Below are positions 8,175 through 62,297 of a DNA stretch of 62,980 nt, in pieces. The stretch lies in IMG/VR virus record IMGVR_UViG_3300020416_000657. One strand, written 5' to 3'. Below the pieces are notes generated by a model. The model was not told the DNA's origin. It saw nothing but the letters and a program-made list of their open reading frames with translations, and searched no databases. Each line of letters opens with the position of its first letter. The stretch's first letter is position 1. The position numbers and the translations under genes are program-made. This DNA is from an uncultured virus (IMG/VR IMGVR_UViG_3300020416_000657) (lineage: Duplodnaviria > Heunggongvirae > Uroviricota > Caudoviricetes).

Positions 8175-8232
8175 AATCAATGACTTAGAGAGGCAGCTTT
8201 TACTTGACATCTGCTATGGGATATGCGATCAT
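8175..8232 (+). promoter_or_regulatory. IHF-consensus site plus sigma70-type promoter with GATCAT -10
   Basis: AATCAATGACTTA 8175-8187; TTGACA 8204-8209, 17-nt spacer, GATCAT 8227-8232. Confidence 0.8.
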
Positions 8233-8259
8233 AGTACTGTAATTGAGAGTGAGAGACAT

Positions 8260-10689
8260 ATGGACATAACTTCTAAATCATACCTTGCGAAACTCCTCGC
8301 TACTGAGGATGTTTCGATTGAACATAGGAATGTACCTACCGCGTACTTCGATTTGAAGTCTAGGAAAATTGTACTTCCCAATTGGAAGGACATGCCTGAT
8401 TTCTTGTATGATTTATTGATTGGTCATGAAGTTGGTCACGCTCTCGTAACTCCCGCTGAAGGTTGGCACTCTGCCTCTTCTAGTAAGGGTGCAAATTTCA
8501 AATCATTCTTGAATGTTGTAGAAGATGTTAGGAATGAGAGACTAGTTAAAATCAGATATCCAGGCTTGGTCAAGTCATTCTATAAAGGATATCAAATGCT
8601 TTACAAGAAAGACTTTTTCGGTCTTTCAAAATTACAAAAGACTCCCCAAGAATTACCACTAATTGATAGAATCAATCTTCACGCTAAGGTTGGTGCTTTC
8701 CTTACTCTACAATTCACCGCTGAGGAACAGGTCATGCTTGACAAGTGTTTCGCTGCTGAGACTTGGGATGAGGTTGTCGCCATTGCTGAGGAGTTGTATG
8801 ACTTCTCTAAGACTGAAGACGCGATGCAAGATCTTTTAGATGAACAAATGGGTATGCCCCAGTTCGGTGAAGATGAAGATGAAGATGACTTCGCTCAAGA
8901 TGAGAATGGCGAATGGTCAGAATCACCATACGGTGAACAAGAATCGGATGAGAATGAAGGTGAAGGCGAGTCCGAGTCTGGTGAAGAAACTGAAGAAGGT
9001 GAAGAGAGTGGTTCTGAGTCTGGTGAAGGTGAAGAGACTGAAGAAGAGACTGAAGATACTACTCCTTCTAGAGAAGAGTCAAAAAATACTGAAGATTCTT
9101 CTGAGTCTGGTGACCCAGAAGATGGCGATATCATGGAAGGTTCTGATAATACTGATGGTGCTAATCCATATGAGTTTGATGACGCGGAACCTAAGTCATT
9201 TACCGATGAAGCGTTTAGAGATGCTGAACAAAACCTAGTAGAATCTGGCAAGACCAATGGTGTTGTTACTGCTACTATGCCTAAGTTCAAGTCTAAGTAC
9301 TTTATTTTCCCAACTACCGATGTTTGGCCTGCTCAAGATTTTGAGTATGTTTGCGGTGGAAGGTATGATGACATTCCTGCTGGTTCTGCTAAGGATGTAG
9401 AGAAAACTTTGCTTGATGAATTCATGCAAAGAAACAAGGGTTCAATTAATCAACTAGTCATGCAGTTTGAGATGAAGAAAAAAGCCACCCTATTGAGGAA
9501 GGCTCAAGTCAACAAAACTGGTAAGTTGAATGAAGATAAGTTGTGGGCATACAAGTTGACTGAAGACTTGTTCCTATCAAGTACTACTGTGCCAGATGGT
9601 CAGAACCATGGCATGATGATGTTTGTAGACTTCTCTGGTTCAATGGGTAGACACATGGCTGGTACTATTGAACAGACACTAATTCAAGTTGCCTTCTGTA
9701 AAAAAGTTGGTATCCCATTTGATGTGTACGGTTTTTCAAACTGTGCTAACTCACTCCAGAGTGAGAAGTTCGGGAATGCCTCTAGGGCTTCTGCTTTCCA
9801 ATCTGCTAATGATGGTGAGTTGTTTATTGAGTCTGGTGGTTTCGGATTGCTTCAGTTGATATCTTCTGAATTGCCTCAGAGTGAGTACAATAGATGTTTC
9901 AAAAAGTTACTTGGTTACAAAACTTCATTTGAGTGGAGAGATATGAAACCAAGGCTGGAAAGATATAATGTTCCTTACCATCTTTATCTTGGTTCTACTC
10001 CGCTGTCAAGTTGTATGATAGTTGGTGCTAAGATTGCTAAAGAGTTCAAAGAAAGAAACAGAATTGAAGTTATGAATACAATTGTTCTTTCCGATGGTGG
10101 AAACACTTCTGACTTGGAAGTAATCTCTGAAGGTAAGTATGAAGAGAGTGGTAGGTTCAGATATGAAAATGCCATCTCAAAAGAGTTTGGTTATGGATAC
10201 GGTGAAGAGAGAACCGAGATTGGTAAGTTCCAATTGAAAGGCAACGGTTTGTCAGTCACCACTAACATCAAGGGAATGTATGGAACAAACTACGGTAGGG
10301 TCTCTTATGAAAGTGCTACTGCTGTTACTTTCGACTACTACAAAAAGTTTGTCGGTTCCAGAATAGTTCACTTCTTCCTAGTTGATAACAACATTAGAGA
10401 AGCGAGACAGGCATGGACTGATATGACAGGTCAGTATGCCGAGTATGATGAAAACTTTGATAAAGAAAAGTCAACTAATTGGAAAAACAATAACTTCATG
10501 GCTTGCGAGTCTAGGTTGGGAAGTGATGCTACTTTCATTCTGAAAGGTGCTAAGTCTCTTAATGAAGAGGCAGAGTTTGAAGTCAAGTCTGATAAGAAGG
10601 CTGACATTTTGAGAGGGTTCAAGAATTTCCAGAAAGGCAAGTCCAATTCCAGACAGTTCTTGAACAGATTTATTGATGAGGTCGCGTAA
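8260..10689 (+). CDS. CobT-like vWA protein with N-terminal HExxH metallopeptidase-like domain
   Basis: HEVGH, acidic linker, MIDAS DFSGSM...TP...LSDG; next to AAA+ partner. Confidence 0.85.
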   Translation: MDITSKSYLAKLLATEDVSIEHRNVPTAYFDLKSRKIVLPNWKDMPDFLYDLLIGHEVGHALVTPAEGWHSASSSKGANFKSFLNVVEDVRNERLVKIRYPGLVKSFYKGYQMLYKKDFFGLSKLQKTPQELPLIDRINLHAKVGAFLTLQFTAEEQVMLDKCFAAETWDEVVAIAEELYDFSKTEDAMQDLLDEQMGMPQFGEDEDEDDFAQDENGEWSESPYGEQESDENEGEGESESGEETEEGEESGSESGEGEETEEETEDTTPSREESKNTEDSSESGDPEDGDIMEGSDNTDGANPYEFDDAEPKSFTDEAFRDAEQNLVESGKTNGVVTATMPKFKSKYFIFPTTDVWPAQDFEYVCGGRYDDIPAGSAKDVEKTLLDEFMQRNKGSINQLVMQFEMKKKATLLRKAQVNKTGKLNEDKLWAYKLTEDLFLSSTTVPDGQNHGMMMFVDFSGSMGRHMAGTIEQTLIQVAFCKKVGIPFDVYGFSNCANSLQSEKFGNASRASAFQSANDGELFIESGGFGLLQLISSELPQSEYNRCFKKLLGYKTSFEWRDMKPRLERYNVPYHLYLGSTPLSSCMIVGAKIAKEFKERNRIEVMNTIVLSDGGNTSDLEVISEGKYEESGRFRYENAISKEFGYGYGEERTEIGKFQLKGNGLSVTTNIKGMYGTNYGRVSYESATAVTFDYYKKFVGSRIVHFFLVDNNIREARQAWTDMTGQYAEYDENFDKEKSTNWKNNNFMACESRLGSDATFILKGAKSLNEEAEFEVKSDKKADILRGFKNFQKGKSNSRQFLNRFIDEVA

Positions 10690-10771
10690 GTGGTTGATTT
10701 TACAGGGAAAGAAAATGAAAAAAAATTCATTTTGGCCCTTGACTTCTGCCCCCAAATATGGGATCATGATC
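10687..10771 (+). promoter_or_regulatory. IHF-consensus site (reverse) plus promoter with GATCAT -10
   Basis: TAAGTGGTTGATT 10687-10699; TTGACT 10739-10744, 17 nt, GATCAT 10762-10767, second GATC at 10768. Confidence 0.8.
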
Positions 10772-10801
10772 AAGTAATTGAGAAAAAGTGAGAGGTAAAT
10801 T

Positions 10802-12040
10802 ATGAGTGTAAAACAGAAAGAACAGTTCCTTCAGGCCCTTGCCGATGTGAACAATTCCGCGTCTGCTGTGTTCTCCAAGGCGGAGGCAATGCAGATTGCA
10901 AAATCGAATGGACTGAAAAATCCCATGTGGTTTTTCAAAGAGTGTAAAGTTGGTAGGAACCAATTTTCGCCAAACATGGCAACTCTAATGACTGTAGGTA
11001 ATACTGCTCTCAAACCTGTCGCCGCTGAGGCGCCTGCCCTTGAAGAGTCGGTATCTACCTTGGAACCAATTGAGACAATTCAGTCTCAATCATTGGATGC
11101 CAAGATTGTAAAACAGGCTAAACTTGCGGTGGAAATCGAGAATTTAATTCCAGATTCAGATAGTACTTATGTCCCATTTGGGTTTCATAAAGATTTGGTG
11201 AACATCATCAAGTCTGGTATGTTCTATCCGACTTTCATTTGTGGTCTTTCTGGTAACGGTAAGACTATGATGGTGGAACAGGTTTGCGCCAAACTCAAGA
11301 AAGAAGCCATTAGGGTTAACATCTCTATCGAAACCGATGAGGATGACTTGATTGGTGGTAACACTCTCGTAGATGGTAATGTGGTTTACAGGGAAGGCCC
11401 TGTGCTGACTGCCATGAAGAGAGGTGCGATTCTCATTCTGGATGAGATTGATAGGGGTTCTAACAAGTTGATGTGCCTTCAGGCAATCCTTGAAGGGAAA
11501 CCTTACTTCAATAAGAAGTCTGGTGAGGTTGTCACGCCTGCTAAAGGTTTCAATGTGATTGCTACCGCGAATACAAAAGGTAGAGGTTCCGATGACGGTA
11601 AGTTCATGGGTGCTCAAGTTCTGGATGAGGCGTTCCTAGAAAGGTTCGCTATCACGGTTGAACAGGAATATCCTTCTAGTGTTCAAGAGAAGAAAATTGT
11701 CATGAACAAAATGGGTGTTGCTGAGTGTGTCGATGAAGACTTTGCTGACAAGTTGGTCATGTGGGCTGACATAATCAGAAAGACTTTCTACGAAGGTGGA
11801 ATCGATGAGTTGGTTTCCACTAGAAGGTTGGAACACATTGTCAAGGCATACGCCATGTTCTCTGATAGACTCAAGGCAATTCAGTTGTGTGTCAATAGGT
11901 TTGATACCGACACTAAGTCTGCCTTCATTGACCTTTACACTAAGGTGGATGCTGGTGCCACGGTTGAAGATATCATGGACAGTCCTGCCGAAGAAGGTGA
12001 AAAAGCTGCTGCTGAGGAGAATGATAGTTATGACTTCTAG
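10802..12040 (+). CDS. cobS: CobS/MoxR-like AAA+ ATPase
   Basis: GLSGNGKT, ILDEID, ATANTKG, LDEAFLERF, STRRL. Confidence 0.9.
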   Translation: MSVKQKEQFLQALADVNNSASAVFSKAEAMQIAKSNGLKNPMWFFKECKVGRNQFSPNMATLMTVGNTALKPVAAEAPALEESVSTLEPIETIQSQSLDAKIVKQAKLAVEIENLIPDSDSTYVPFGFHKDLVNIIKSGMFYPTFICGLSGNGKTMMVEQVCAKLKKEAIRVNISIETDEDDLIGGNTLVDGNVVYREGPVLTAMKRGAILILDEIDRGSNKLMCLQAILEGKPYFNKKSGEVVTPAKGFNVIATANTKGRGSDDGKFMGAQVLDEAFLERFAITVEQEYPSSVQEKKIVMNKMGVAECVDEDFADKLVMWADIIRKTFYEGGIDELVSTRRLEHIVKAYAMFSDRLKAIQLCVNRFDTDTKSAFIDLYTKVDAGATVEDIMDSPAEEGEKAAAEENDSYDF

Positions 12041-12395
12041 TCCAGACTACAAATATAATGAAGGGGCTCTTATTCAAGAGCTCCAATCTTATATAGATGA
12101 AACTTATGGGCAACATTATTCCCAGAACAAATATCAGGCAACCGAATTTATTATTGACGGTGGTCATGGGATGGGATTTTGTATTGGAAACATTTTGAAG
12201 TATGCCCAGAGGTATGGAAAAAAAGACGGTACTAACCGTAAAGATTTATTAAAGGTACTGCACTATGCTATTATCGCATTGCATGTACATGACATTGGTG
12301 AGCAAGAAGCAGAGAGTGAGCAAGTTCGCCAGTACGCACAGTTTGAGGGACATATCGCTGAAGAGACTTCAGCTGAAGACGATATACCCTTTTAA
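12030..12395 (+). CDS. DUF3310-like protein
   Basis: HYS...GFCIGNILKYAQRYGKK..DLLK pattern; start refined to the ATG after GAGGAG. Confidence 0.8.
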   Translation: MTSSPDYKYNEGALIQELQSYIDETYGQHYSQNKYQATEFIIDGGHGMGFCIGNILKYAQRYGKKDGTNRKDLLKVLHYAIIALHVHDIGEQEAESEQVRQYAQFEGHIAEETSAEDDIPF

Positions 12396-12400
12396 CAGTT

Positions 12401-12472
12401 TGCCCCCAGCGGGCAGTCGGGACTTGGTACGCCTCTCTCTTACTCTCTCACAAGAAGTATCAAGTTCCCGAC
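12401..12472 (+). ncRNA. Candidate structured small RNA: short hairpin plus ~15-bp stem with CU-rich loop
   Basis: TGCCC/GGGCA; GTCGGGACTTGGTAC (12416-30) pairs with GTATCAAGTTCCCGAC (12457-72); loop contains CTCTCTCTTACTCTCTCA. Confidence 0.6.
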
Positions 12473-12480
12473 ACTTTTAT

Positions 12481-12488
12481 TATAAATA
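12481..12488 (+). promoter_or_regulatory. T4-type late promoter
   Basis: TATAAATA upstream of ORF 12521. Confidence 0.8.
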
Positions 12489-12520
12489 AGAGAGTAAGAA
12501 TTTTATTAGAGGAATGAACA

Positions 12521-12871
12521 ATGGCATATAGATTAACTTATACAAGTACTCGACCAGATACTTCAGCCAATTGGTATTTTTTTGCCGAGGACGCTAGTTC
12601 TGATTTCGAGACAAACGGTACACATTTTAGGAATTGGCTTGACGCGAGGTCAGATGTTACAGTAACATTGACTATTGCTGAAGACAATCTTTCTTTTAAA
12701 TGGGATTTAGATTTCGCTGATGAAGACGCTTACAATGCGTATATAGTGGACAGGGATGCCTTATTTGCGGCTGCACCTTACAATGGAACTGGTCACTTAT
12801 CAGAGACTTCTTATAAAGATTACTTGACTGCTAATGGTATGACAGAAGAGATTACTACTGGCGAAGTATAA
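12521..12871 (+). CDS. Hypothetical late protein
   Basis: RBS GAGG, late promoter, 116-aa ORF. Confidence 0.75.
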   Translation: MAYRLTYTSTRPDTSANWYFFAEDASSDFETNGTHFRNWLDARSDVTVTLTIAEDNLSFKWDLDFADEDAYNAYIVDRDALFAAAPYNGTGHLSETSYKDYLTANGMTEEITTGEV

Positions 12872-12880
12872 AAAATGGGG

Positions 12881-12910
12881 TTGACATTTGCCCCTAACAA
12901 ATGTTAGTAT
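12881..12910 (+). promoter_or_regulatory. Sigma70-type promoter for gp45 operon
   Basis: TTGACA-18-TAGTAT with TG extension. Confidence 0.6.
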
Positions 12911-12938
12911 ATGATGTTTAATTTGATTGAGGTATATT

Positions 12939-13589
12939 ATGAAACTATCCAAAAGTACTTTGGAGTTGTTGAAAAACTTTGCTACGATTAATACCAATTT
13001 ATTGGTTAAGTCTGGTAGTAGTTTATCAACTGTGTCCGCTTCTAAGTCTATTTTTGCAAAGGGCACAATCGAAGAGAGCTTCCCACAGGAGTTCGCAATC
13101 TATGACTTAAATCAATTTCTATCTTTGGTCACAATGAGTGAGGATACTGAGATTGATTTTTCCGATGATTATCTGACATGTAAGTCCGATGCTGGAAGGT
13201 TCAAGTTTTATTACGCGGAACCATCTATTATCGTGGCAGCTCCAGATAAAGAAATTGAAATTGATGCTTTCTATCAATTCAATATTACCAAAGAACAACT
13301 CAACACTATCTACAGGGCAGCGAGTGTAATCTCTGCTCCTACTCTTAGTGTTGTCGCCAATGGTGGCAATGTAGTTCTTAGTGTGGGTGACCCGAATACT
13401 CCTAAGAGTAATTCATTCACTACCGACATTGGTAATGCTAATGTAGAGTTTGATGCTAGACTAGGAATTGAAAACCTAAAAGTAATCGCGGATGATTATG
13501 AGGTTACTGTTTCCCAGAAGAAAGTATTCAAATTTTCTAACGCGAAGAGAACCTATTTCTTGGCACTAGAACCGAGTTCAAATATTTAA
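12939..13589 (+). CDS. gp45: Sliding clamp
   Basis: MKLSKSTLELLKNFATIN..., FAIYDLNQFL. Confidence 0.95.
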   Translation: MKLSKSTLELLKNFATINTNLLVKSGSSLSTVSASKSIFAKGTIEESFPQEFAIYDLNQFLSLVTMSEDTEIDFSDDYLTCKSDAGRFKFYYAEPSIIVAAPDKEIEIDAFYQFNITKEQLNTIYRAASVISAPTLSVVANGGNVVLSVGDPNTPKSNSFTTDIGNANVEFDARLGIENLKVIADDYEVTVSQKKVFKFSNAKRTYFLALEPSSNI

Positions 13590-13753: not shown

Positions 13754-14368
13754 ATGAAAATCGAAGTTGGTCAAAAACTGCCACAAGATATCACTTTTCA
13801 CATGAGGGTGAGGGATGAAAATATGGTGGCACAGGGTGATGATAACCCATACATTTGGCAGATGGTTAATTCAACTGACTTGTTCAAGGATAAAAGGGTA
13901 GTTCTTTTTTCTTTGCCAGGCGCTTTTACTCCAACATGTTCTACTTATCAACTACCAGACTATGACAATAATTACGAATTGTTCAAAGCAAATGGTATTG
14001 ATGAAGTGTATTGTCTATCTGTTAATGATAGTTTTGTTATGAACAAGTGGGGTGATTGGTTGGACATCGATAATGTCAAATTAATTCCAGATGGTAGTGC
14101 TTATTTTACTGAGCAAATGGGTGCATTGGTAAGGAAAGACAATCTAGGATTTGGCGCTAGGTCATGGAGATATTCTTTACTCGCAAATGATGGAGTAGTT
14201 GAAGTCGCATTTGTCGAAGATGGATGTGGTGACGATTGTCCAACAGACCCATATGAAGTGTCTGACCCCTTAACTATGATGGAGTATATTCAAACTGTTA
14301 GTCCAGTAGGTAGACAGCACGAATTAAATCTTGAAGATGGATTGGGAACAGAAGAACAGTTTGCATAA
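13754..14368 (+). CDS. Peroxiredoxin (Prx5 type)
   Basis: SLPGAFTPTCS, SVNDSFVM, GFGARSWRY. Confidence 0.93.
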   Translation: MKIEVGQKLPQDITFHMRVRDENMVAQGDDNPYIWQMVNSTDLFKDKRVVLFSLPGAFTPTCSTYQLPDYDNNYELFKANGIDEVYCLSVNDSFVMNKWGDWLDIDNVKLIPDGSAYFTEQMGALVRKDNLGFGARSWRYSLLANDGVVEVAFVEDGCGDDCPTDPYEVSDPLTMMEYIQTVSPVGRQHELNLEDGLGTEEQFA

Positions 14369-15152
14369 AGTTGATTACGATTTAAAACCTTTATCAAAAG
14401 AACTCGCAATAGATTTTATACAAACGCATCATTATTCACCTATGATGCCTAAACTTACGAAACACTATTTGGGGTGTTTCTTGGAAGGTGAATTAGTAGG
14501 CGTTTTGACTCTGGGATGGGGAACACAACCTAGACAAACAATCAATAAAATGTTTACAGGTCTGGAGTCAAAGCATTACTGGGAGATTGGTAAGATGTGC
14601 ATGACGGATGAAATGCCAACCAATTCCGAATCACAAATGATAAAGAAAACTGTGAGATGGATAAAAGATAATTGTCCAGATGTATTGTTTCTTTATACAA
14701 TGGCAGATGGTATCATGGGTAAGTGTGGATATGTATATCAGGCAAGTAATTTTTTATACGGTGGACAATACTTCACTCAAGTATATGAAATAAATGGTGA
14801 GAAGGTTCACCCAAGAGCAACAAGAAAGTTATGTGAGGAGAACGCAAAGTTCTCTGGCAAAGAGAGAGTTTTTTGGTTGACTTCAGATTTTATGCAAGAG
14901 AAGGGAATCAAAAAAATAGAAGGGTATATGTTTAGATATATCTTTCCGCTGAATAAGAAAGCAAAAAAATTATTGAAAAAATCAAATATGGAATGGACTA
15001 GAACTTATCCAAAAGACCATGACCTAAAATGGTTTGATAAAACATCCAATCCAAAATTTGAAATCGAACAACCTCACTTCACATATGATGAAGTTCTCCA
15101 TAACGCGAGGAATATATCTGGTGGTGGGGCATCTTTAAGAGGAATATTATGA
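14331..15152 (+). CDS. Mom-like GNAT-family DNA modification protein (start may be TTG 14361)
   Basis: HHYS...LVGVLTLG...EIGKMC...NSES...AD...GYVYQASNFLY pattern. Confidence 0.7.
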   Translation: MKMDWEQKNSLHKVDYDLKPLSKELAIDFIQTHHYSPMMPKLTKHYLGCFLEGELVGVLTLGWGTQPRQTINKMFTGLESKHYWEIGKMCMTDEMPTNSESQMIKKTVRWIKDNCPDVLFLYTMADGIMGKCGYVYQASNFLYGGQYFTQVYEINGEKVHPRATRKLCEENAKFSGKERVFWLTSDFMQEKGIKKIEGYMFRYIFPLNKKAKKLLKKSNMEWTRTYPKDHDLKWFDKTSNPKFEIEQPHFTYDEVLHNARNISGGGASLRGIL

Positions 15153-17524: not shown

Positions 17525-17941
17525 ATGGTGGATGATTTTTTTGACATTGATTTCCCCGACTACAAACCAGTAGAAATAGTTTTAGAAAAAGAGGATGATT
17601 TTTTAAAGGTTAGGGAAACTTTGTCGCGTATTGGGGTGGCATCTAAAAAGGACAGGACATTGTATCAGTCTTGCCATATTCTCCATAAACAAGGTAGGTA
17701 TTTTATAACTCACTTCAAGGAACTTTTTGCTTTAGATGGTAAAGAAGCAGACTTGACTGAGAACGATTTAAAAAGACGAAACGCAATTGCTAAATTGTTA
17801 AGTGATTGGGGTCTAGTTAAGCTTCTTGATGAATCTATTGAAGAAGAAGTGGCTCCTATGAGTCAGATAAAGATTTTGTCCTTCAAAGAGAAGGATGAAT
17901 GGACGCTCGTTACGAAATACAATATCGGGCGAAAACGATAA
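17525..17941 (+). CDS. regA: Translational repressor RegA
   Basis: DDFLKVRETLSRIGVAS, LYQSCHILHKQGRY..HFKELF. Confidence 0.96.
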   Translation: MVDDFFDIDFPDYKPVEIVLEKEDDFLKVRETLSRIGVASKKDRTLYQSCHILHKQGRYFITHFKELFALDGKEADLTENDLKRRNAIAKLLSDWGLVKLLDESIEEEVAPMSQIKILSFKEKDEWTLVTKYNIGRKR

Positions 17942-18274: not shown

Positions 18275-18311
18275 TTGACTTTGGAAAAAAAGTCCCCAGA
18301 TCATATAAATA
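18275..18311 (+). promoter_or_regulatory. Overlapping sigma70-type promoter (GATCAT -10) and T4 late promoter for hsp20
   Basis: TTGACT 18275-80, 18 nt, GATCAT 18299-304; TATAAATA 18304-11. Confidence 0.7.
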
Positions 18312-18316
18312 TAGTA

Positions 18317-18372
18317 GTAGATGCTCGGGTGAGGTCTACACTTTTAACTCGCTTAATAAGGAGGAAAACATG
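18317..18372 (+). promoter_or_regulatory. ROSE-like RNA thermometer in hsp20 5' UTR
   Basis: CTCGCTT (18348-54) pairs with SD AAGGAG (18358-63) leaving a bulged G; upstream GTAGA/TCTAC hairpin. Confidence 0.65.
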
Positions 18373-18819
18373 AATACATTAAGCACACAAGCGCATTGGG
18401 ACAATCTTGTCTCTGCATTTCCACACATTCGCAGACAATTCGTAGGGTTCGATAGAGTAATTGATTTACTCAACCAGAACTTTGAGTTGAATGTGAATTC
18501 ATACCCACCTTTCAACATCGAAAAATTAGATGAAGAAAACTACGAGATTCAAATGGCTCTCGCTGGATTTAAAGAATCTGATTTAACAATTGAAGTGAAA
18601 GACGGTACGCTTACTGTTGAGGGGAATCAAGAATCGGAAGAAACATCTGATTTCATTCATCAAGGTATTGCTCAAAGAAAATTCAAAAAGTCATGGAGTC
18701 TCGCTGACACAGTTGTTGTCGAGGGTGCTAAATTGACAGATGGTATTCTTAGAGTTTCTTTGAAGAATGTTATTCCAGAAGAAAAGAAAGCTCAAACAAT
18801 TAAGATTAAGACCAAGTAA
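18370..18819 (+). CDS. hsp20: Small heat shock protein (Hsp20/IbpA family)
   Basis: YPPFNI, ALAGF, HQGIAQRKF, GAKLTDGIL, IPEEKK. Confidence 0.95.
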   Translation: MNTLSTQAHWDNLVSAFPHIRRQFVGFDRVIDLLNQNFELNVNSYPPFNIEKLDEENYEIQMALAGFKESDLTIEVKDGTLTVEGNQESEETSDFIHQGIAQRKFKKSWSLADTVVVEGAKLTDGILRVSLKNVIPEEKKAQTIKIKTK

Positions 18820-25884: not shown

Positions 25885-25969
25885 TAAGTTGTTGATTTAG
25901 AAGGATATTTAATTTCACTTTTTTTCGCTTTGGCCCTTGACATTTGGGTCAAAATATGGGATCATGATC
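25885..25969 (+). promoter_or_regulatory. IHF-consensus site (reverse) plus promoter with GATCAT -10
   Basis: TAAGTTGTTGATT 25885-97; TTGACA 25937-42, 17 nt, GATCAT 25960-65, second GATC at 25966. Confidence 0.8.
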
Positions 25970-25996
25970 GTATAAATGAGAGAAGTGAGAGAAAAT

Positions 25997-26359
25997 ATGC
26001 AAAAAGAAATCGAAAACCTACTAACCTTAATCAACGAAGACTACGCGAGGTGGTCTACTCGTTCTTTTGAAGTCAATGATTTTGGCGGAGAAGAGAGGCG
26101 AGATGCTCGCATTGCTGAGTTCGCTGATAAACTGGTTGTCAAAGAAGGTCAGAAATACATCAAGATTATTTCAGACAATTCAGTTTGGGGATTCATTGTC
26201 AAGGGTGACAATGATAAATTATTTCAAAAGGGTGATGTTTTAAAACCCGCTGGTTGGGCTGCCCCCGCTAGGAACAAACCTAGAGGCAATGTGTTTGCCA
26301 TGATGGAAGGCAAAGGAACTGGTTGGGTAAGATGGACTGGCCCTCAGTACTTACGGTAG
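25997..26359 (+). CDS. Hypothetical early protein
   Basis: KYIKI..SVWGF..KGDVLKPAGWAAPARNKPRGN; first gene after the promoter. Confidence 0.8.
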   Translation: MQKEIENLLTLINEDYARWSTRSFEVNDFGGEERRDARIAEFADKLVVKEGQKYIKIISDNSVWGFIVKGDNDKLFQKGDVLKPAGWAAPARNKPRGNVFAMMEGKGTGWVRWTGPQYLR

Positions 26360-40357: not shown

Positions 40358-40386
40358 TTGACATTTGGTCTCAAATGTGAGATCAT
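40358..40386 (+). promoter_or_regulatory. Sigma70-type promoter with GATCAT -10
   Basis: TTGACA 40358-63, 17 nt, GATCAT 40381-86. Confidence 0.8.
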
Positions 40387-47519: not shown

Positions 47520-48635
47520 ATGTGGAACTACTATGATGTTAACTCTATGACCATAGAACTATCTAGTCTATGTAATGCCGCTTGTCCGTGGTGTCCTAGA
47601 TACGAAGATTTTTCTAAAGTAGTTAACAGACAACTAGAACCACAGTATATAACTATTGACCAGTTTAAAGAGTGGTTTCCACCAGATTTTATGTCCAGAA
47701 TAAAACTATGGGCATTTACAGGGGATTATGGTGACGCTGGTACTAATCCAGATTTACCAGACATTATAAGACACATATATGAACACAACCCCAATGCTCA
47801 ACTATCGATGAACACTAACGGTGGTATGAGAACACCAGAGTTTTGGGGGTTACTTGGTCAGTTGTTTTCTAGAAAGGAACACAACAATATGATATTCTCA
47901 ATAGATGGACTTGAGGATACGAACCACATATACAGGAGAAATGTTAGGTGGAACAAACTAATGGAAAATGTTCTCGCGTTTCTGGATGCTGGTGGTAAGG
48001 CGACATGGGAGTGTTTGGTATTCCAACATAACCAACACCAGATAGATGAGATAAGAGATTTAGGAAAACACATGGGGTTTTCTGAGGTGCATTTTAAAAT
48101 GCCAAAAGGATTTGAGAAAGATAATATAAGAGTAAAAGATAAGAAAGGTGAATACCTCTATACAATATATCCTACTAGTGAAGACCAGATATCAAAAGGA
48201 TATCCAGATTTACACGGTAAGAAGGCAGAAGACTTAGATTATGAAGAAATTAGAGATGATATGGAGTCATATTATTCTAATGAACAGGGGGAAATAAAAT
48301 GTTTTTCCCAAAGAGATGACTTGACAGAATTAAAGATAACATCGTGGGGTACTGTATATCCATGTTGCCATTTTGGACACATATCTAAACATCAACGAGA
48401 GAATCAACAGTACTATAAAGCTCAACTTATCGACATATTCAAGGATAAAAATATATCTCTCAAGTCAAGAACATTAAAAGATATATTGGATGATGACCCA
48501 TTCAATTGGATTTACAATAGTTGGAAAAAGAAATCATGTCTGGCATGTTGGTCAAATTGTGGTGTGTCAGAAAGTAAACAACCAATAATGCAACAGATAT
48601 TTAATAAGGAAGGGAAGTTATATGGCACAACATAA
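47520..48635 (+). CDS. Radical SAM protein with SPASM/twitch-like C-terminus
   Basis: CNAACPWC, TNGG, FSIDG, VYPCC, CLAC..NC. Confidence 0.9.
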   Translation: MWNYYDVNSMTIELSSLCNAACPWCPRYEDFSKVVNRQLEPQYITIDQFKEWFPPDFMSRIKLWAFTGDYGDAGTNPDLPDIIRHIYEHNPNAQLSMNTNGGMRTPEFWGLLGQLFSRKEHNNMIFSIDGLEDTNHIYRRNVRWNKLMENVLAFLDAGGKATWECLVFQHNQHQIDEIRDLGKHMGFSEVHFKMPKGFEKDNIRVKDKKGEYLYTIYPTSEDQISKGYPDLHGKKAEDLDYEEIRDDMESYYSNEQGEIKCFSQRDDLTELKITSWGTVYPCCHFGHISKHQRENQQYYKAQLIDIFKDKNISLKSRTLKDILDDDPFNWIYNSWKKKSCLACWSNCGVSESKQPIMQQIFNKEGKLYGTT

Positions 48636-49242
48636 TGATATACGCGGATGGATGATGGACGGTGACTATAATGCCATAGAGAAGGTTTGTTCAGAGTTTC
48701 TAAATAGGGATTATGTCGAAGTATTTGAAATAGGAACCCTATATGGCAAAAGTGCCATTGCTTTTGATGACGCATTGAAAACTGTACCCCATCACATCAC
48801 CACAATGGATGTGTGTGAGGGTTGGATAGGGCCTTCAGATGAAATAATAGAGATGTTGGGACTAGATGACAATTTCAAGGCAATGCGTGATGCAAATAGA
48901 AGTACAGCAGAAGAACAGTTCGATGAGATACACACAAATATCTTGAATAGGGATATAACCTTTATCGATGATAAATGGGAACTTGGTTACGATTATCCAG
49001 TAGTCAGTCCCGATATAGTATTTTATGATGGTTCACATAGTTATGAGGAAACGAGAGATATTCTTCAATACTGGAGTGAGATTGCTGTTGAGGGAAAAGT
49101 ATTGGTAATTGATGATTACAATCATACACAATGGGAAGGACTCAAAAAGGCAGTAGATGAGTTTATAGATAAAACAGGGTGGGAGATAACTTCATACCCA
49201 GATTCAAAAATGATATCAATAAGGATAAACAATGATAGTTGA
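48622..49242 (+). CDS. Class I SAM-dependent methyltransferase (Methyltransf_24-like)
   Basis: EIGTLYGKS, YDGSHSYE, IDDY. Confidence 0.85.
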   Translation: MAQHNDIRGWMMDGDYNAIEKVCSEFLNRDYVEVFEIGTLYGKSAIAFDDALKTVPHHITTMDVCEGWIGPSDEIIEMLGLDDNFKAMRDANRSTAEEQFDEIHTNILNRDITFIDDKWELGYDYPVVSPDIVFYDGSHSYEETRDILQYWSEIAVEGKVLVIDDYNHTQWEGLKKAVDEFIDKTGWEITSYPDSKMISIRINNDS

Positions 49243-57911: not shown

Positions 57912-57980
57912 AATCAATGACTTACAGAGGCGGATTTTTCGCCCAAACGCTTGACTTTTGCCCCCAATTCTGTCATGATC
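57912..57980 (+). promoter_or_regulatory. IHF-consensus site plus promoter with GATC overlapping -10
   Basis: AATCAATGACTTA 57912-24; TTGACT 57951-56, 17 nt, CATGAT, GATC 57977-80. Confidence 0.75.
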
Positions 57981-58012
57981 ATTATGTAAGATAAATCATG
58001 AGAGGAAATAAT

Positions 58013-61808: not shown

Positions 61809-61879
61809 TAAGTGATTGATATATAAGGGAAATAAAAGATAAAATAATCCTTGACATCTGGTCTCATTTATGGGATCAT
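61809..61879 (+). promoter_or_regulatory. IHF-consensus site (reverse) plus promoter with GATCAT -10
   Basis: TAAGTGATTGATA 61809-21; TTGACA 61851-56, 17 nt, GATCAT 61874-79. Confidence 0.8.
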
Positions 61880-61884
61880 ATACA

Positions 61885-62297
61885 CATACTGAGAGATGAG
61901 GAGATTGACCATGGCATGACGATAGATTAAACCCCAGTTAAACCGCACCATCTCACCTGTGTTGAGGTTCAGAAAGAGTGCTATCGGGGTCGGATATGAA
62001 CACAGGGGCCGATTTGAAAGGTGGCATTGACCACGCTCCGATGAGGCCATGGCAGGGGGGACGCAGCCCCATCAAAAGGCGGAGAGAAACTTAAAAGGAG
62101 AGCCCAGTAGGGCAGGGCAGAGTAAGGACTATCTGCTAGCAGGGTTGTGCCTCAATACACACGCGCTCCCCCACGGTTAGGGGAGCATCACTCGGCGAGG
62201 GCAGGGGTCAGGCGGGCCTATGCTTTGGGATCGGGGTGGACGCCCTTACAAGGGCATCTGGCATCCCCCCATATATGAAACGATTTTAATTTTTTTT
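61885..62297 (+). ncRNA. Candidate ~400-nt structured non-coding RNA
   Basis: Follows a strong promoter, no credible ORF, GC-rich relative to the genome, many helices, ends in a GC hairpin and T-run. Confidence 0.6.

What the first reader, a model, noticed from the sequence alone, without database searches (positions are those of the whole stretch)
12401..12499. Hairpin RNA whose CU-rich loop is antisense to the leaders of the GATC-promoter genes
Seen: a ~15-bp stem (12416-30 with 12457-72) presents the loop CUCUCUCUUACUCUCUCA. It can pair with GAGAGUGAGAGA (8245-56; 12 bp, one G-U), UGAGAGAAGUGAGAGA (25977-92; 15 bp, one bulge, one G-U), AGUGAGAG (10787-94), UGAGAGA (61890-96) and UGAGAG (57999-58004). 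These are the ribosome-binding leaders just downstream of the five IHF/GATC promoters. It also pairs perfectly with AGAGAGUAAGA (12489-99) just after the adjacent late promoter. The hairpin lies at the 3' end of the cobS operon. Inference: a 3'-UTR-derived sRNA that silences the early regulon as negative feedback, with the 12489 segment as a cis pseudoknot or sponge.
Basis: partly seen in the sequence, partly recalled or inferred. Interest (0 to 1): 0.85.

Follow-up and report, generated by a model that had tools for sequence, protein, structure and literature searches.

The report
Conserved pyrimidine-loop RNA hairpin in phage
An uncultured marine T4-like phage keeps, between an early operon and a late gene, a conserved RNA hairpin whose exposed CU-rich loop mirrors the phage's GA-rich ribosome-binding leaders, so it most likely shuts translation off by base pairing, although nothing has been tested at the bench.

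Summary
A 15-bp hairpin (12416-30 / 12457-72) with a 26-nt CU-rich loop exists (z -4.0). It occurs once per near-complete genome and matches no Rfam family. Relatives keep the loop while every stem pair changes by compensation (15/15 pairs; 14/15 in a second set found without using the motif).

All listed complementarities are real and depend on sequence order. Shuffled loops reach them in at most 0.3% of 1000 trials. The cobT, cobS and 25997 leaders rank 3, 4 and 1 of 88 start regions.

The sRNA reading is only partly supported:
- No discrete RNA could be shown.
- UGAGAG-type leaders also occur in cyanophages that lack the hairpin.
- The loop and the early leaders do not covary.

The partner that co-evolves with the loop is in cis. 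Loop 12438-48 pairs with 12489-99, and loop 12432-36 pairs with the Shine-Dalgarno AGAGG (12508-12) of the next gene, across the late promoter. This resembles T4 genes e, soc and 49. In a sister lineage the same loop follows gp41, whose own start region always carries the complement, which resembles icaR.

Best reading: a translation-silencing loop that pairs with ribosome-binding regions. It is a new variant of a known kind. The scan noted this element earlier on a related genome (e1-5659700).

The parts
8204..8232 (+). Early sigma70-like promoter (TTGACA-N17-GATCAT) of the cobT-like gene, start of the operon that ends at the hairpin
   Evidence: (pattern),-type reading of sequence
8245..8256 (+). 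cobT-like leader GAGAGUGAGAGA, 12 contiguous pairs (one G-U) with loop 12436-12447; 3 nt before ATG 8260
   Evidence: (net -16.1 kcal/mol)
10787..10795 (+). cobS leader AGUGAGAGG, pairs with loop 3' half (CUCUCAC); downstream of promoter 10739-10767
   Evidence: (net -18.8)
25977..25992 (+). Leader of gene 25997-26359 (DUF7717-like), 15 pairs with one bulge with the loop; downstream of promoter 25937-25965
   Evidence: rank 1 of 88; net -19.8
12030..12395 (+). DUF3310 gene, last gene of the early operon (cobT-like 8260-10689, cobS 10802-12040)
12402..12415 (+). Small GC-rich hairpin directly 5' of the main hairpin; kept with different sequence in groups A2 and B
12416..12430 (+). 5' arm of the main stem
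12431..12456 (+). 26-nt loop; CU core 12432-12451 (two CUCUCU(C) repeats separated by UA)
   Evidence: opening cost 0.7 kcal/mol
12457..12472 (+). 3' arm of the main stem (bulged U 12465)
12473..12480 (+). U-rich tract ACUUUUAU after the stem (possible intrinsic termination point; inferred)
   Evidence: tract present in groups A, B, F, absent in C, D, E
12481..12488 (+). T4-type late promoter TATAAATA
   Evidence: consensus as quoted in PMC3014915
12489..12499 (+). GA segment AGAGAGUAAGA, perfect 11-nt complement of loop 12438-12448; present only in read-through RNA if the late start is near 12494 (inferred)
12508..12512 (+). Shine-Dalgarno AGAGG of the 116-aa gene, complementary to loop 12432-12436 (CCUCU)
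12521..12871 (+). 116-aa gene of unknown family, always present with the hairpin in the DUF3310-gp45 interval
   Evidence: (no family)
12881..12910 (+). sigma70-like promoter (TTGACA-18-TAGTAT, TG) in front of gp45 (12927-13589), so gp45 does not depend on read-through

Best explanation
The element is a conserved RNA stem-loop, read on the + strand. Its stem serves only to display a 17-20 nt alternating CU loop that is complementary to the GA-rich ribosome-binding regions used in this phage clade. I read it as a translation-silencing loop that pairs with ribosome-binding regions, sitting at the boundary between an early transcription unit and a late gene.

In this window the most likely primary action is in cis. 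In RNA that starts at the early promoters (8204, 10739) and reads past the hairpin, loop 12438-48 pairs with 12489-99 and loop 12432-36 pairs with the Shine-Dalgarno AGAGG at 12508-12. This forms a pseudoknot-like clamp that hides the start region of the 116-aa gene. RNA made from the late promoter TATAAATA (12481-88) starts inside or after the GA segment, lacks the loop, and is translated.

The same loop can also fold back on, or meet in trans, the GA-rich leaders of its own operon (cobT-like, cobS) and of gene 25997. That would damp early translation once the 3' end has been made.

Shown: the structure, its conservation, its single copy per genome, and the complementarities with their statistics. 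Inferred: transcription through the hairpin, the late start point, formation of the pairings in vivo, and repression.
For: Structure and conservation:
- The fold is real: z = -4.0.
- All stem pairs covary while the loop core is invariant: 15/15 pairs, 98.1% of cells paired, 0/500 shuffles, slid controls 32-44%.
- A set fetched by protein homology, not by the motif, gives 14/15 pairs and 97.5% paired.
- Group B keeps the loop although its stem is entirely different and the neighbouring 116-aa protein is only 33% identical.
- There is one copy in each of the 137-kb and 161-kb relatives and one in the window.
- The 17-nt motif sits in a tight hairpin in 21 of 83 distinct IMG/VR contexts, against 2 of 131 in prokaryote genomes.

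Cis partner:
- A two-part pairing (GA segment plus Shine-Dalgarno) is predicted in 9 of 9 group A/B variants, at -17.4 to -19.9 kcal/mol. The other 7 late-promoter leaders of the window give -4 to -11.5.
- The cognate loop type pairs better with the post-promoter segment in 5 of 5 comparisons, by 1.1-4.1 kcal/mol.
- Read-through RNA gives a net -15.1 kcal/mol, against -8.9 for RNA starting at 12494.
- The hairpin and the 116-aa gene co-occur in 18 of 18 loci and are both absent in 62 of 62.
- gp45 has its own sigma70-like promoter.

Own-operon and early leaders:
- They rank 1, 3 and 4 of 88 start regions, with net energies of -16 to -20 kcal/mol.
- Shuffled loops reach these energies in at most 0.3% of trials.
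- In group B3 the cobT leader is a perfect 11-nt complement.
- In group C the hairpin follows gp41, and the gp41 start region carries xUGAGAGAGAU in 17 of 17 loci (10 distinct sequences). It is absent from 0 of 4 gp41 start regions where no hairpin follows.

Precedents:
- T4 genes e, soc, 49 and I-TevI (PMC3014915, passages).
- CT-rich insulators against read-through (bioRxiv 10.1101/086108, abstract).
- icaR 3'-UTR/SD pairing (PMC3868564, abstract).
- CU-rich terminator-loop pairing in LhrC (PMC4132741, passages).
Against: - No transcript ends or levels are known. The RNA-library data are assembled contigs of relatives and may be DNA.
- The cis model fails for group C. There the next gene's leader has no GA partner, and a separate terminator follows the hairpin.
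- The early-leader model lacks covariation. The cobT leader is the same in groups A and B although the loop differs, giving a G-U pair in A.
- UGAGAG-type start regions are about as frequent in four phages without the hairpin: 9, 7, 6 and 3 matches, against 7 in the nearest relative G001.
- One hairpin-less relative (L039) has a strong GA leader on cobS, and C48C1 also has one.
- The three good leaders in the window are paralogous cassettes.
- Coding sites score as well as the leaders by crude duplex energy.
- Groups B-F of the first motif scan were found by the exact motif, so their loop identity is partly an ascertainment effect. Groups A/B and the second group C set are not affected.
- The hairpin clades are few, so the co-occurrence counts reflect a small number of evolutionary events.
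- Folding energy does not tell the strands apart: 6 of 16 hairpins fold better on the + strand.
Confidence: 0.5

Rival explanations
1. The hairpin, together with the small 5' hairpin (12402-15), is released or terminated as a stable RNA of about 75-80 nt derived from the 3' UTR. It acts mainly in trans on the leaders of the GATCAT-promoter early genes and gives delayed negative feedback on the early regulon. The 12489-99 segment would then be secondary.
For: - Net pairing energies are -16 to -20 kcal/mol for three early leaders. They rank 1, 3 and 4 of 88, and the pairing depends on sequence order.
- Near-invariance of the loop across lineages is easier to explain with several targets than with one co-evolving cis partner.
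- In groups C and E the CU hairpin is followed by a separate terminator hairpin, the usual small-RNA layout.
- Early-promoter leaders with at least 9 nt of complement occur in every lineage with enough context: G002, G010, G009, G005, G006/G013, G007, G012 and G014.
- A conserved 5' mini-hairpin could protect a processed 5' end.
- LhrC uses a CU-rich terminator loop in this way (PMC4132741).
Against: - No discrete RNA has been shown.
- There is no loop-leader covariation.
- GA leaders are common without the hairpin.
- Two of the five proposed targets are only 6-7 nt matches, with net energies near -8 kcal/mol.
- The apparent own promoter in group E is weak, 9 of 12 matches.
Confidence: 0.25
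2. The loop is a binding site for a protein, for example ribosomal protein S1, a cold-shock or KH-type protein, Rho, or a phage factor such as the RegA homologue at 17525-17941. The complementarity to GA-rich leaders would then be incidental to two low-complexity compositions.
For: - Strict conservation of a 15-17 nt single-stranded sequence made of two tandem CUCUCUC repeats, on variable stems, is typical of protein sites.
- The window encodes a RegA-type translation repressor.
- The T-run is not constant, so the hairpin is not merely a terminator.
Against: - No candidate protein is linked to the element by any result here.
- Complementarity to specific partners depends on sequence order, and the cis partner tracks the loop type.
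- Pyrimidine preference of S1 or Rho, and the AU-rich preference of T4 RegA, are recalled, not tested.
Confidence: 0.12
3. The element is an ordinary intrinsic terminator or 3' stabiliser of the early operon. The loop sequence has no function of its own and is conserved through recent common descent or hitch-hiking.
For: - The stem is stable and is followed by ACUUUUAUUAU at an operon end.
- In groups A, B and F a T-run follows the stem.
Against: - A 22-26 nt loop is outside the usual terminator range, and the terminator scan (loop 3-8) does not call it.
- The stems are fully diverged while the loop is kept.
- Groups C, D and E have no T-run after this hairpin.
- The motif is enriched in hairpins only in phage contigs.
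Confidence: 0.08
4. The feature acts at the DNA level. The CT/GA tract and its inverted copy at 12489-99, together with GAGAGTGAGAGA in the leaders, would be operators for a DNA-binding protein. Alternatively, the mirror-repeat polypyrimidine tract forms a non-B DNA structure near the late promoter.
For: - The motif occurs as an inverted repeat flanking the late promoter (12438-48 and 12489-99), and again just downstream of early promoters.
- CTCTCTC-TTA-CTCTCTC is a mirror repeat.
Against: - Compensatory stem changes in two independent sets show selection for a folded single strand.
- A cruciform with a 26-nt loop is unfavourable (established knowledge).
- In group C there is no second inverted copy near the hairpin.
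Confidence: 0.05

Closest known systems
Inhibitory leader structures of T4 late genes e (lysozyme), soc, 49 and I-TevI (PMC3014915, passages read)
   Same: - A late TATAAATA promoter lies immediately upstream of the start region.
- The strand that sequesters the Shine-Dalgarno lies upstream of the late start, so only upstream-initiated (early) RNA is silenced and late RNA is translated.
   Different: - Here the inhibitory strand is the loop of a separate, long-stemmed terminator-like hairpin, so the predicted structure is a loop-to-leader pseudoknot of 11 + 5 bp across the promoter rather than a simple stem-loop.
- The silenced gene is an unknown 116-aa protein.
- The same loop also occurs in other genomic contexts that have no downstream partner (group C).
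icaR mRNA of Staphylococcus aureus: 3'-UTR motif pairing with the Shine-Dalgarno of the same mRNA (PMC3868564, abstract read)
   Same: A pyrimidine-rich motif in the 3' UTR is complementary to the ribosome-binding region at the 5' end of the same transcription unit. Here that is cobT and cobS in groups A and B, and gp41 in group C.
   Different: - The motif is (CU)n-CAC/UAC-(CU)n in a hairpin loop, not UCCCCUG.
- The unit is a 4.2-kb three-gene operon.
- No RNase III or translation data exist.
- This is a phage, not a bacterial chromosome.
CU-rich-loop small RNAs that pair with ribosome-binding regions, e.g. Listeria LhrC (PMC4132741, passages read). Other UCCC-loop sRNAs (RNAIII, RsaE) and the cuckoo/alpha-r14 family are recalled or taken from earlier scan notes only.
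   Same: An exposed C/U-rich loop, including the terminator loop in LhrC, pairs with AG-rich Shine-Dalgarno regions to block initiation.
   Different: - No independent gene or stable transcript has been shown.
- There is one loop rather than redundant motifs.
- There is no UCCC word.
- There is no sequence or Rfam relationship.
CT-rich translational insulators inside sigma54 promoters (bioRxiv 10.1101/086108, abstract read)
   Same: A short CT-rich sequence upstream of a promoter's start pairs with the downstream ribosome-binding site and silences read-through transcripts only.
   Different: - Those motifs are 3-5 nt long and lie within 25 nt of the SD in E. coli sigma54 promoters.
- Here a 17-nt loop on a conserved hairpin lies about 60-75 nt upstream of the SD, in front of a T4-type late promoter.

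Membership tests
T4-type late-gene leader sequestration (e, soc, 49, I-TevI) | T4 late promoter TATAAATA directly upstream of the start region of the silenced gene | tested here: met
   TATAAATA lies at 12481-88 and the ATG at 12521. The promoter is kept in all group A/B variants.
T4-type late-gene leader sequestration (e, soc, 49, I-TevI) | Shine-Dalgarno and/or AUG paired with a strand that lies upstream of the late transcription start | tested here: met
   This was tested in silico only. Loop 12432-36 pairs with SD 12508-12, and loop 12438-48 pairs with 12489-99, in 9 of 9 variants. Read-through RNA gives a net -15.1 kcal/mol against -8.9 for late RNA. The geometry is a pseudoknot, not a plain hairpin.
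T4-type late-gene leader sequestration (e, soc, 49, I-TevI) | Early or middle transcripts read into the gene, and its translation from them is reduced | not testable with these tools
   One RNA-library contig of a relative spans 12391-12595, but it may be DNA. No translation data exist.
3'-UTR-derived or CU-loop small RNA that pairs with ribosome-binding regions (LhrC-like) | Discrete, stable small transcript | tested here: inconclusive
   Only Logan contigs were available, at small shares. No transcript ends can be read from them.
3'-UTR-derived or CU-loop small RNA that pairs with ribosome-binding regions (LhrC-like) | Accessible C/U-rich loop complementary to the Shine-Dalgarno regions of several mRNAs | tested here: met
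   The loop opening cost is 0.7 kcal/mol. Three leaders give net energies of -16 to -20 kcal/mol and rank 1, 3 and 4 of 88. Shuffled loops reach these energies in at most 0.3% of trials.
3'-UTR-derived or CU-loop small RNA that pairs with ribosome-binding regions (LhrC-like) | UCCC word in the pairing loop (Gram-positive family signature, PMC4132741) | tested here: not met
   The loop is alternating CU with no UCCC. It works like this family but is not a member.
icaR-type 5'-3' UTR pairing | 3'-UTR motif complementary to the SD region of the same mRNA | tested here: met
   The cobT leader gives 12 pairs and the cobS leader 9 pairs. In group C the gp41 start region carries the complement in 17 of 17 loci, against 0 of 4 where no hairpin follows gp41.
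icaR-type 5'-3' UTR pairing | One RNA molecule spans both ends, and the pairing lowers translation or creates an RNase III substrate | not testable with these tools
   No transcript maps are available. The phage is uncultured.
Rho-independent terminator | GC-rich stem, short loop (about 3-8 nt) and an immediately following U-tract | tested here: inconclusive
   The stem is adequate (-22 kcal/mol). The loop is 26 nt, so the scan does not call it. The tract ACUUUUAUUAU is present here but absent after the hairpin in groups C, D and E.
Any Rfam family | Match at the family's gathering score | tested here: not met
   There were 0 matches in the window at gathering thresholds. The best sub-threshold match near the hairpin scores 18.2 bits against a 61.7 cut-off.

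The most novel reading that the evidence does not exclude
Marine T4-like phages that lack a RegB-type nuclease may use a single-copy RNA loop as their early shut-off device. Each early transcription unit that ends in the CU-loop hairpin would close on its own GA-rich ribosome-binding region as soon as its 3' end is made, producing a self-limiting, 5'-3' paired mRNA. The same loop would silence sister early mRNAs in trans and insulate the adjacent late gene from read-through. This would be the first regulatory base-pairing RNA described for the T4 group.
Probability: 0.25. Interest if true: 0.8.

Novelty: new variant of a known kind. Interest (0 to 1): 0.6.

Why it matters
Post-transcriptional control in T4-type phages is known almost only through proteins (RegA, RegB) and through local leader hairpins. 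[quoted passage not shown]

This element is a single-copy RNA motif that is absent from Rfam. Its loop is held nearly constant over lineages whose stems and neighbouring proteins have diverged completely. It sits at two different early/late boundaries: after DUF3310 and after gp41.

If the pairing model is right, it shows how abundant uncultured marine myoviruses time translation without culturable hosts. It would also give a compact natural part (a stem plus a CU loop) that silences GA-rich ribosome-binding sites.

It is directly testable in E. coli reporters with compensatory mutations.

Tried and rejected
- **Rfam.** There were no matches at gathering thresholds and only chance-level matches at E up to 10.
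- **Public RNA runs.** 12 runs hold small shares. Laying 4 of them gave only assembled contigs of relatives. One spans 12391-12595 and one stops at 12464. No ends, no strand and no small RNA can be read from them. This is no evidence either way.
- **Strand assignment by folding energy.** Inconclusive: 6 of 16 hairpins fold better on the + strand. The + strand is preferred from gene orientation and the downstream T-runs and terminators only.
- **Host-encoded counterpart.** Only 2 of 131 contexts had a tight stem, and no recognisable family emerged.
- **Cultured phages.** The motif, with up to 1 mismatch, is absent from Syn30, ACG-2014d, C48C1 and marine virus AG-345-O18.
- **Group E as a stand-alone sRNA gene.** I first read it this way, but the promoter scan gives only a 9/12 match, so I dropped the claim.
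- **Loop-leader covariation in group C.** The base before UGAGAGAG varies (A/G/U) without a matching change in the loop.
- **Resemblances recalled from memory, not tested and not relied on:** the 16S 3' tail, the cyanobacterial Yfr1 motif, lambda/rrn boxA, Rho rut sites, and H-DNA.
- **Literature.** Searches found no description of this motif (terms are given in those calls). Supplements were not consulted.
- **Not used:** Complex prediction, structure prediction and protein homology searches. The 116-aa protein has no Pfam or PHROG family.
Full report
**Setting.** The window is the replication-gene region of an uncultured marine T4-like myovirus. Almost all ORFs lie on the + strand. They include:
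- gp47/gp46-like SbcCD, gp45, gp44, gp62, a RegA-type repressor, Hsp20, gp43, UvsX, gp41, primase, td and nrdAB;
- a cobT-like gene (8260-10689), cobS (10802-12040) and a DUF3310 gene (12030-12395).

The closest cultured relatives are T4-like cyanophages, at only 47% identity in gp43. The host is unknown. The window's own assembly is not held; the nearest record is G001.

**The observation.**
- The arms are 12416-30 and 12457-72, with 15 pairs, one G-U and one bulged U.
- The loop is 26 nt and reads GCCUCUCUCUUACUCUCUCACAAGAA.
- The 105-nt region folds at -33.6 kcal/mol, z = -4.0, and 0 of 200 shuffles fold as well.
- A small GC hairpin (12402-15) precedes it.
- ACUUUUAU, the T4-type late promoter TATAAATA (12481-88) and AGAGAGUAAGA (12489-99) follow it.
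- Then comes the Shine-Dalgarno AGAGG (12508-12) of a 116-aa ORF (12521-12871), which matches no Pfam or PHROG family.

The listed complementarities hold:
- 12 contiguous pairs with 8245-56;
- 15 pairs with one bulge at 25977-92;
- 9 pairs at 10787-95;
- 11 perfect pairs at 12489-99.

The matches at 61890-96 and 57999-58004 are only 6-7 nt and are energetically weak (net -8.6 and -8.3 kcal/mol). The leaders do follow sigma70-like promoters of the form TTGAC-N17-GATCAT. I found eight such promoters on the + strand. Three have strong complements, two have weak ones, and three have none or only an ordinary SD. IHF was not tested.

**Is it more than chance?**
- Among 88 start regions (-30 to +3), the 25997, cobT-like and cobS leaders rank 1, 3 and 4 for duplex energy with the loop. 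The next gene (12521) ranks 8.
- With accessibility included, the loop costs 0.7 kcal/mol to open. Net energies are -19.8, -16.1 and -18.8 kcal/mol for these leaders, against -7.4 to -9.0 for the other early leaders.
- 1000 shuffled loops of the same composition reach the observed energy in 0.3%, 0.1%, 0% and 0.2% of trials for cobT, cobS, 25997 and the cis segment. None of the 1000 reach the sum for the three leaders.

Points against:
- A crude tile scan of the whole + strand finds seven coding sites with better energy.
- The three leaders are copies of one promoter-leader cassette, so they count as about one event.

**It is a conserved structured element.**
- Relatives were fetched by the neighbouring proteins. 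They carry the hairpin in 18 of 80 DUF3310 loci. All 18 also carry the 116-aa gene between DUF3310 and gp45. The other 62 have neither, and in 45 of those gp45 follows DUF3310 directly.
- Within these 18, the closest group (A) shows compensatory changes. A distant group (B: 116-aa protein 33% identical, gp45 62%) has a completely different GC stem but nearly the same loop.
It found the same core in the loops of strong hairpins with unrelated stems in further phage contigs, groups C-F.
- 21 of 83 distinct IMG/VR contexts have at least 8 contiguous enclosing pairs, against 2 of 131 in prokaryote genomes.
- A covariance model built from group A alone recovers groups B-F at E = 3e-6 to 0.02.
- In the resulting 17-sequence alignment, 15 of 15 pairs show changes on both sides and 98.1% of cells pair. 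0 of 500 shuffles reach this, and slid controls pair at 32-44%. That alignment is fitted to the model.

Groups C-F were ascertained by the motif itself, so I built a set free of that bias. I fetched relatives of the 443-aa gene downstream of the group C hairpin, which gave 27 loci; the weakest, L431 (27% identity over a fragment), was left out, leaving 26.
- By eye, 25 of the 26 have a CU-loop hairpin right after gp41, in at least ten different stems.
- The model hits 20 of 26.
- Across 13 distinct rows, 14 of 15 pairs are compensatory and 97.5% of cells pair.
- The core CUCUCUCACUCUCUC is kept. The number of CU repeats varies by one, and three loci have a rearranged variant.

The element is single-copy. 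It occurs once in G001 (137 kb), once in G002 (161 kb) and once in the window. It is absent from Syn30, ACG-2014d, C48C1 and AG-345-O18.

**What does the loop pair with? (a) The cis partner.**
- In all 9 group A/B variants examined, the loop pairs in two parts with the leader of the next gene. The loop core pairs with the GA segment right after TATAAATA, and the 5' CCUCU(CU) pairs with the Shine-Dalgarno (AGAGG, AGGGG or AAGGGAG).
- The energies are -17.4 to -19.9 kcal/mol, with z from -1.8 to -3.9 against shuffles of the same leader. The other seven late-promoter leaders of the window reach only -4 to -11.5.
- The GA segment changes with the loop type. Group A has UUAC in the loop opposite GUAA, and group B3 has UCAC opposite GUG.
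- In a cross-pairing matrix, the cognate loop type is better in 5 of 5 columns, by 1.1-4.1 kcal/mol. There are only two loop types, so this amounts to one or two events.
- If the late start lies about 6 nt after TATAAATA (recalled for T4, not mapped here), late RNA keeps only part of the target. Its net energy is -8.9 kcal/mol, against -15.1 for read-through RNA.
- gp45 has its own sigma70-like promoter at 12881-12910. The 116-aa gene is therefore the only gene exposed to read-through from the early operon.

This is the logic of T4 genes e, soc, 49 and I-TevI (PMC3014915, passages), and of CT-rich insulators (bioRxiv 10.1101/086108, abstract).

**What does the loop pair with? (b) Start regions of the same unit and of sister early genes.**
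- In group B3 the cobT leader is a perfect 11-nt complement (G009).
- In group B2, the cobS leader and another GATCAT leader carry UUGAGAGAG(G) (G010).
- In group D, an early-promoter leader 2.2 kb upstream is the only site of at least 9 nt in an 8-kb contig (G006). It is one of ten such sites in the 48-kb contig (G013).
- In group C, the gp41 start region carries xUGAGAGAGAU 6-9 nt before the ATG in 17 of 17 loci where the start was found (10 distinct sequences). It pairs at -14 to -24 kcal/mol with the loop of its own 3' UTR.
- gp41 start regions of four phages in which no hairpin follows gp41 (the window, Syn30, ACG-2014d, AG-345-O18) lack the motif, 0 of 4.
- cobS leaders carry a GA motif in 3 of 3 distinct hairpin-bearing sequences, and strongly in 1 of 7 distinct hairpin-less ones.

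This resembles the icaR 3'-UTR/SD pairing (PMC3868564, abstract) and the CU-rich terminator loop of LhrC (PMC4132741, passages).

Points against a specific link:
- TGAGAGRR-N(1-12)-ATG occurs 9, 7, 6 and 3 times in the four hairpin-less phages, against 7 times in G001.
- C48C1 has a (GA)5 leader behind a sigma70-like promoter.
- The cobT leader did not change when the loop changed from C to U in group A, although pairing is kept through a G-U.
- In group C, the base before UGAGAGAG varies without a matching change in the loop.
- The hairpin-bearing clades are few, so the co-occurrence counts are not independent events.

**Synthesis.** Three results are shown:
- a single-copy, strand-oriented stem-loop is under selection for its fold;
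- its loop sequence is held nearly constant;
- that loop is the mirror of the GA-rich ribosome-binding regions of this phage clade.

The simplest function that fits all contexts is silencing of start regions by base pairing. In this window, the partner with the best energetic logic and the only co-evolution signal is the adjacent late gene's leader in read-through RNA. They are the only available ones in group C.

I put about 0.5 on this pairing-silencer reading. Within it, cis insulation is the leading action here. I put 0.25 on a mainly trans-acting processed sRNA. Lower odds go to a protein site, a plain terminator, or a DNA-level site.

No transcript data could decide between them. The public RNA libraries gave only assembled contigs of relatives.

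**Novelty.** The element matches no Rfam family. No paper was found in the searches. [quoted passage not shown]

The design (a CU loop against Shine-Dalgarno regions, and sequestration relieved by a late promoter) is known. The element itself is new in three respects: its unusual use of a 22-26-nt terminator-type loop, its position across a late promoter, and its recurrence at two different early/late boundaries.

The scan has noted the same element before on a related genome (e1-5659700). It has also noted analogous pyrimidine-loop phage RNAs elsewhere. Those notes are leads, not support.

Noticed in passing
window 8204-8232, 10739-10767, 18275-18303, 25937-25965, 40358-40386, 57951-57982, 61851-61879: There is a family of early promoters whose -10 element is GATCAT, often as GGGATCATGATC with two GATC sites. 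They are followed by a conserved leader (gtaattgagag...). The same cassette occurs in relatives G002 and G010. Promoters with TATAAT in G002 lack the GA leader. The phage also encodes a DNA methyltransferase-like protein (48622-49242) and a Mom-like protein (14331-15152), so methylation-sensitive early promoters are conceivable.
   Followed up: partly
window 18275-18311: An early-type promoter (TTGACT-N17-GATCAT) overlaps a late TATAAATA box: the GATCAT runs into TATAAATA at 18304. This lies upstream of the Hsp20 gene (18370-18819) and could be a dual early/late promoter.
   Followed up: no
window 61885-62275: A GC-rich stretch of about 390 nt with no convincing ORF lies downstream of the early promoter at 61851. 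It has no Rfam match at E up to 1 and no excess folding stability (z = -0.03).
   Followed up: partly
L405-L429 (group C loci), about 20-70 nt after the CU hairpin: In the gp41-linked lineage the CU hairpin is always followed by a second conserved hairpin (consensus ...ugagcaugucauuaaaaugcuca plus a U-run). A late promoter and a 443-aa gene of unknown function (L404:2016-3347) come next.
   Followed up: partly
window 12521-12871: The 116-aa protein that always accompanies the hairpin has no Pfam or PHROG family. It sits where T4 has rpbA upstream of gene 45 (gene order recalled). No homology to RpbA was found in the Pfam scan.
   Followed up: partly
OQ984149.1 (Phage C48C1) 109,290-109,375: A cultured-collection Kyanoviridae record without the CU hairpin has a sigma70-like promoter followed by a leader with GAGAGAGAGAG just before an ATG. 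GA-repeat leaders are therefore wider than the hairpin's distribution.
   Followed up: partly
window 17525-17941: A RegA-type translation repressor is encoded four genes downstream of the hairpin. Whether a RegB-type nuclease exists in this phage was not examined.
   Followed up: no
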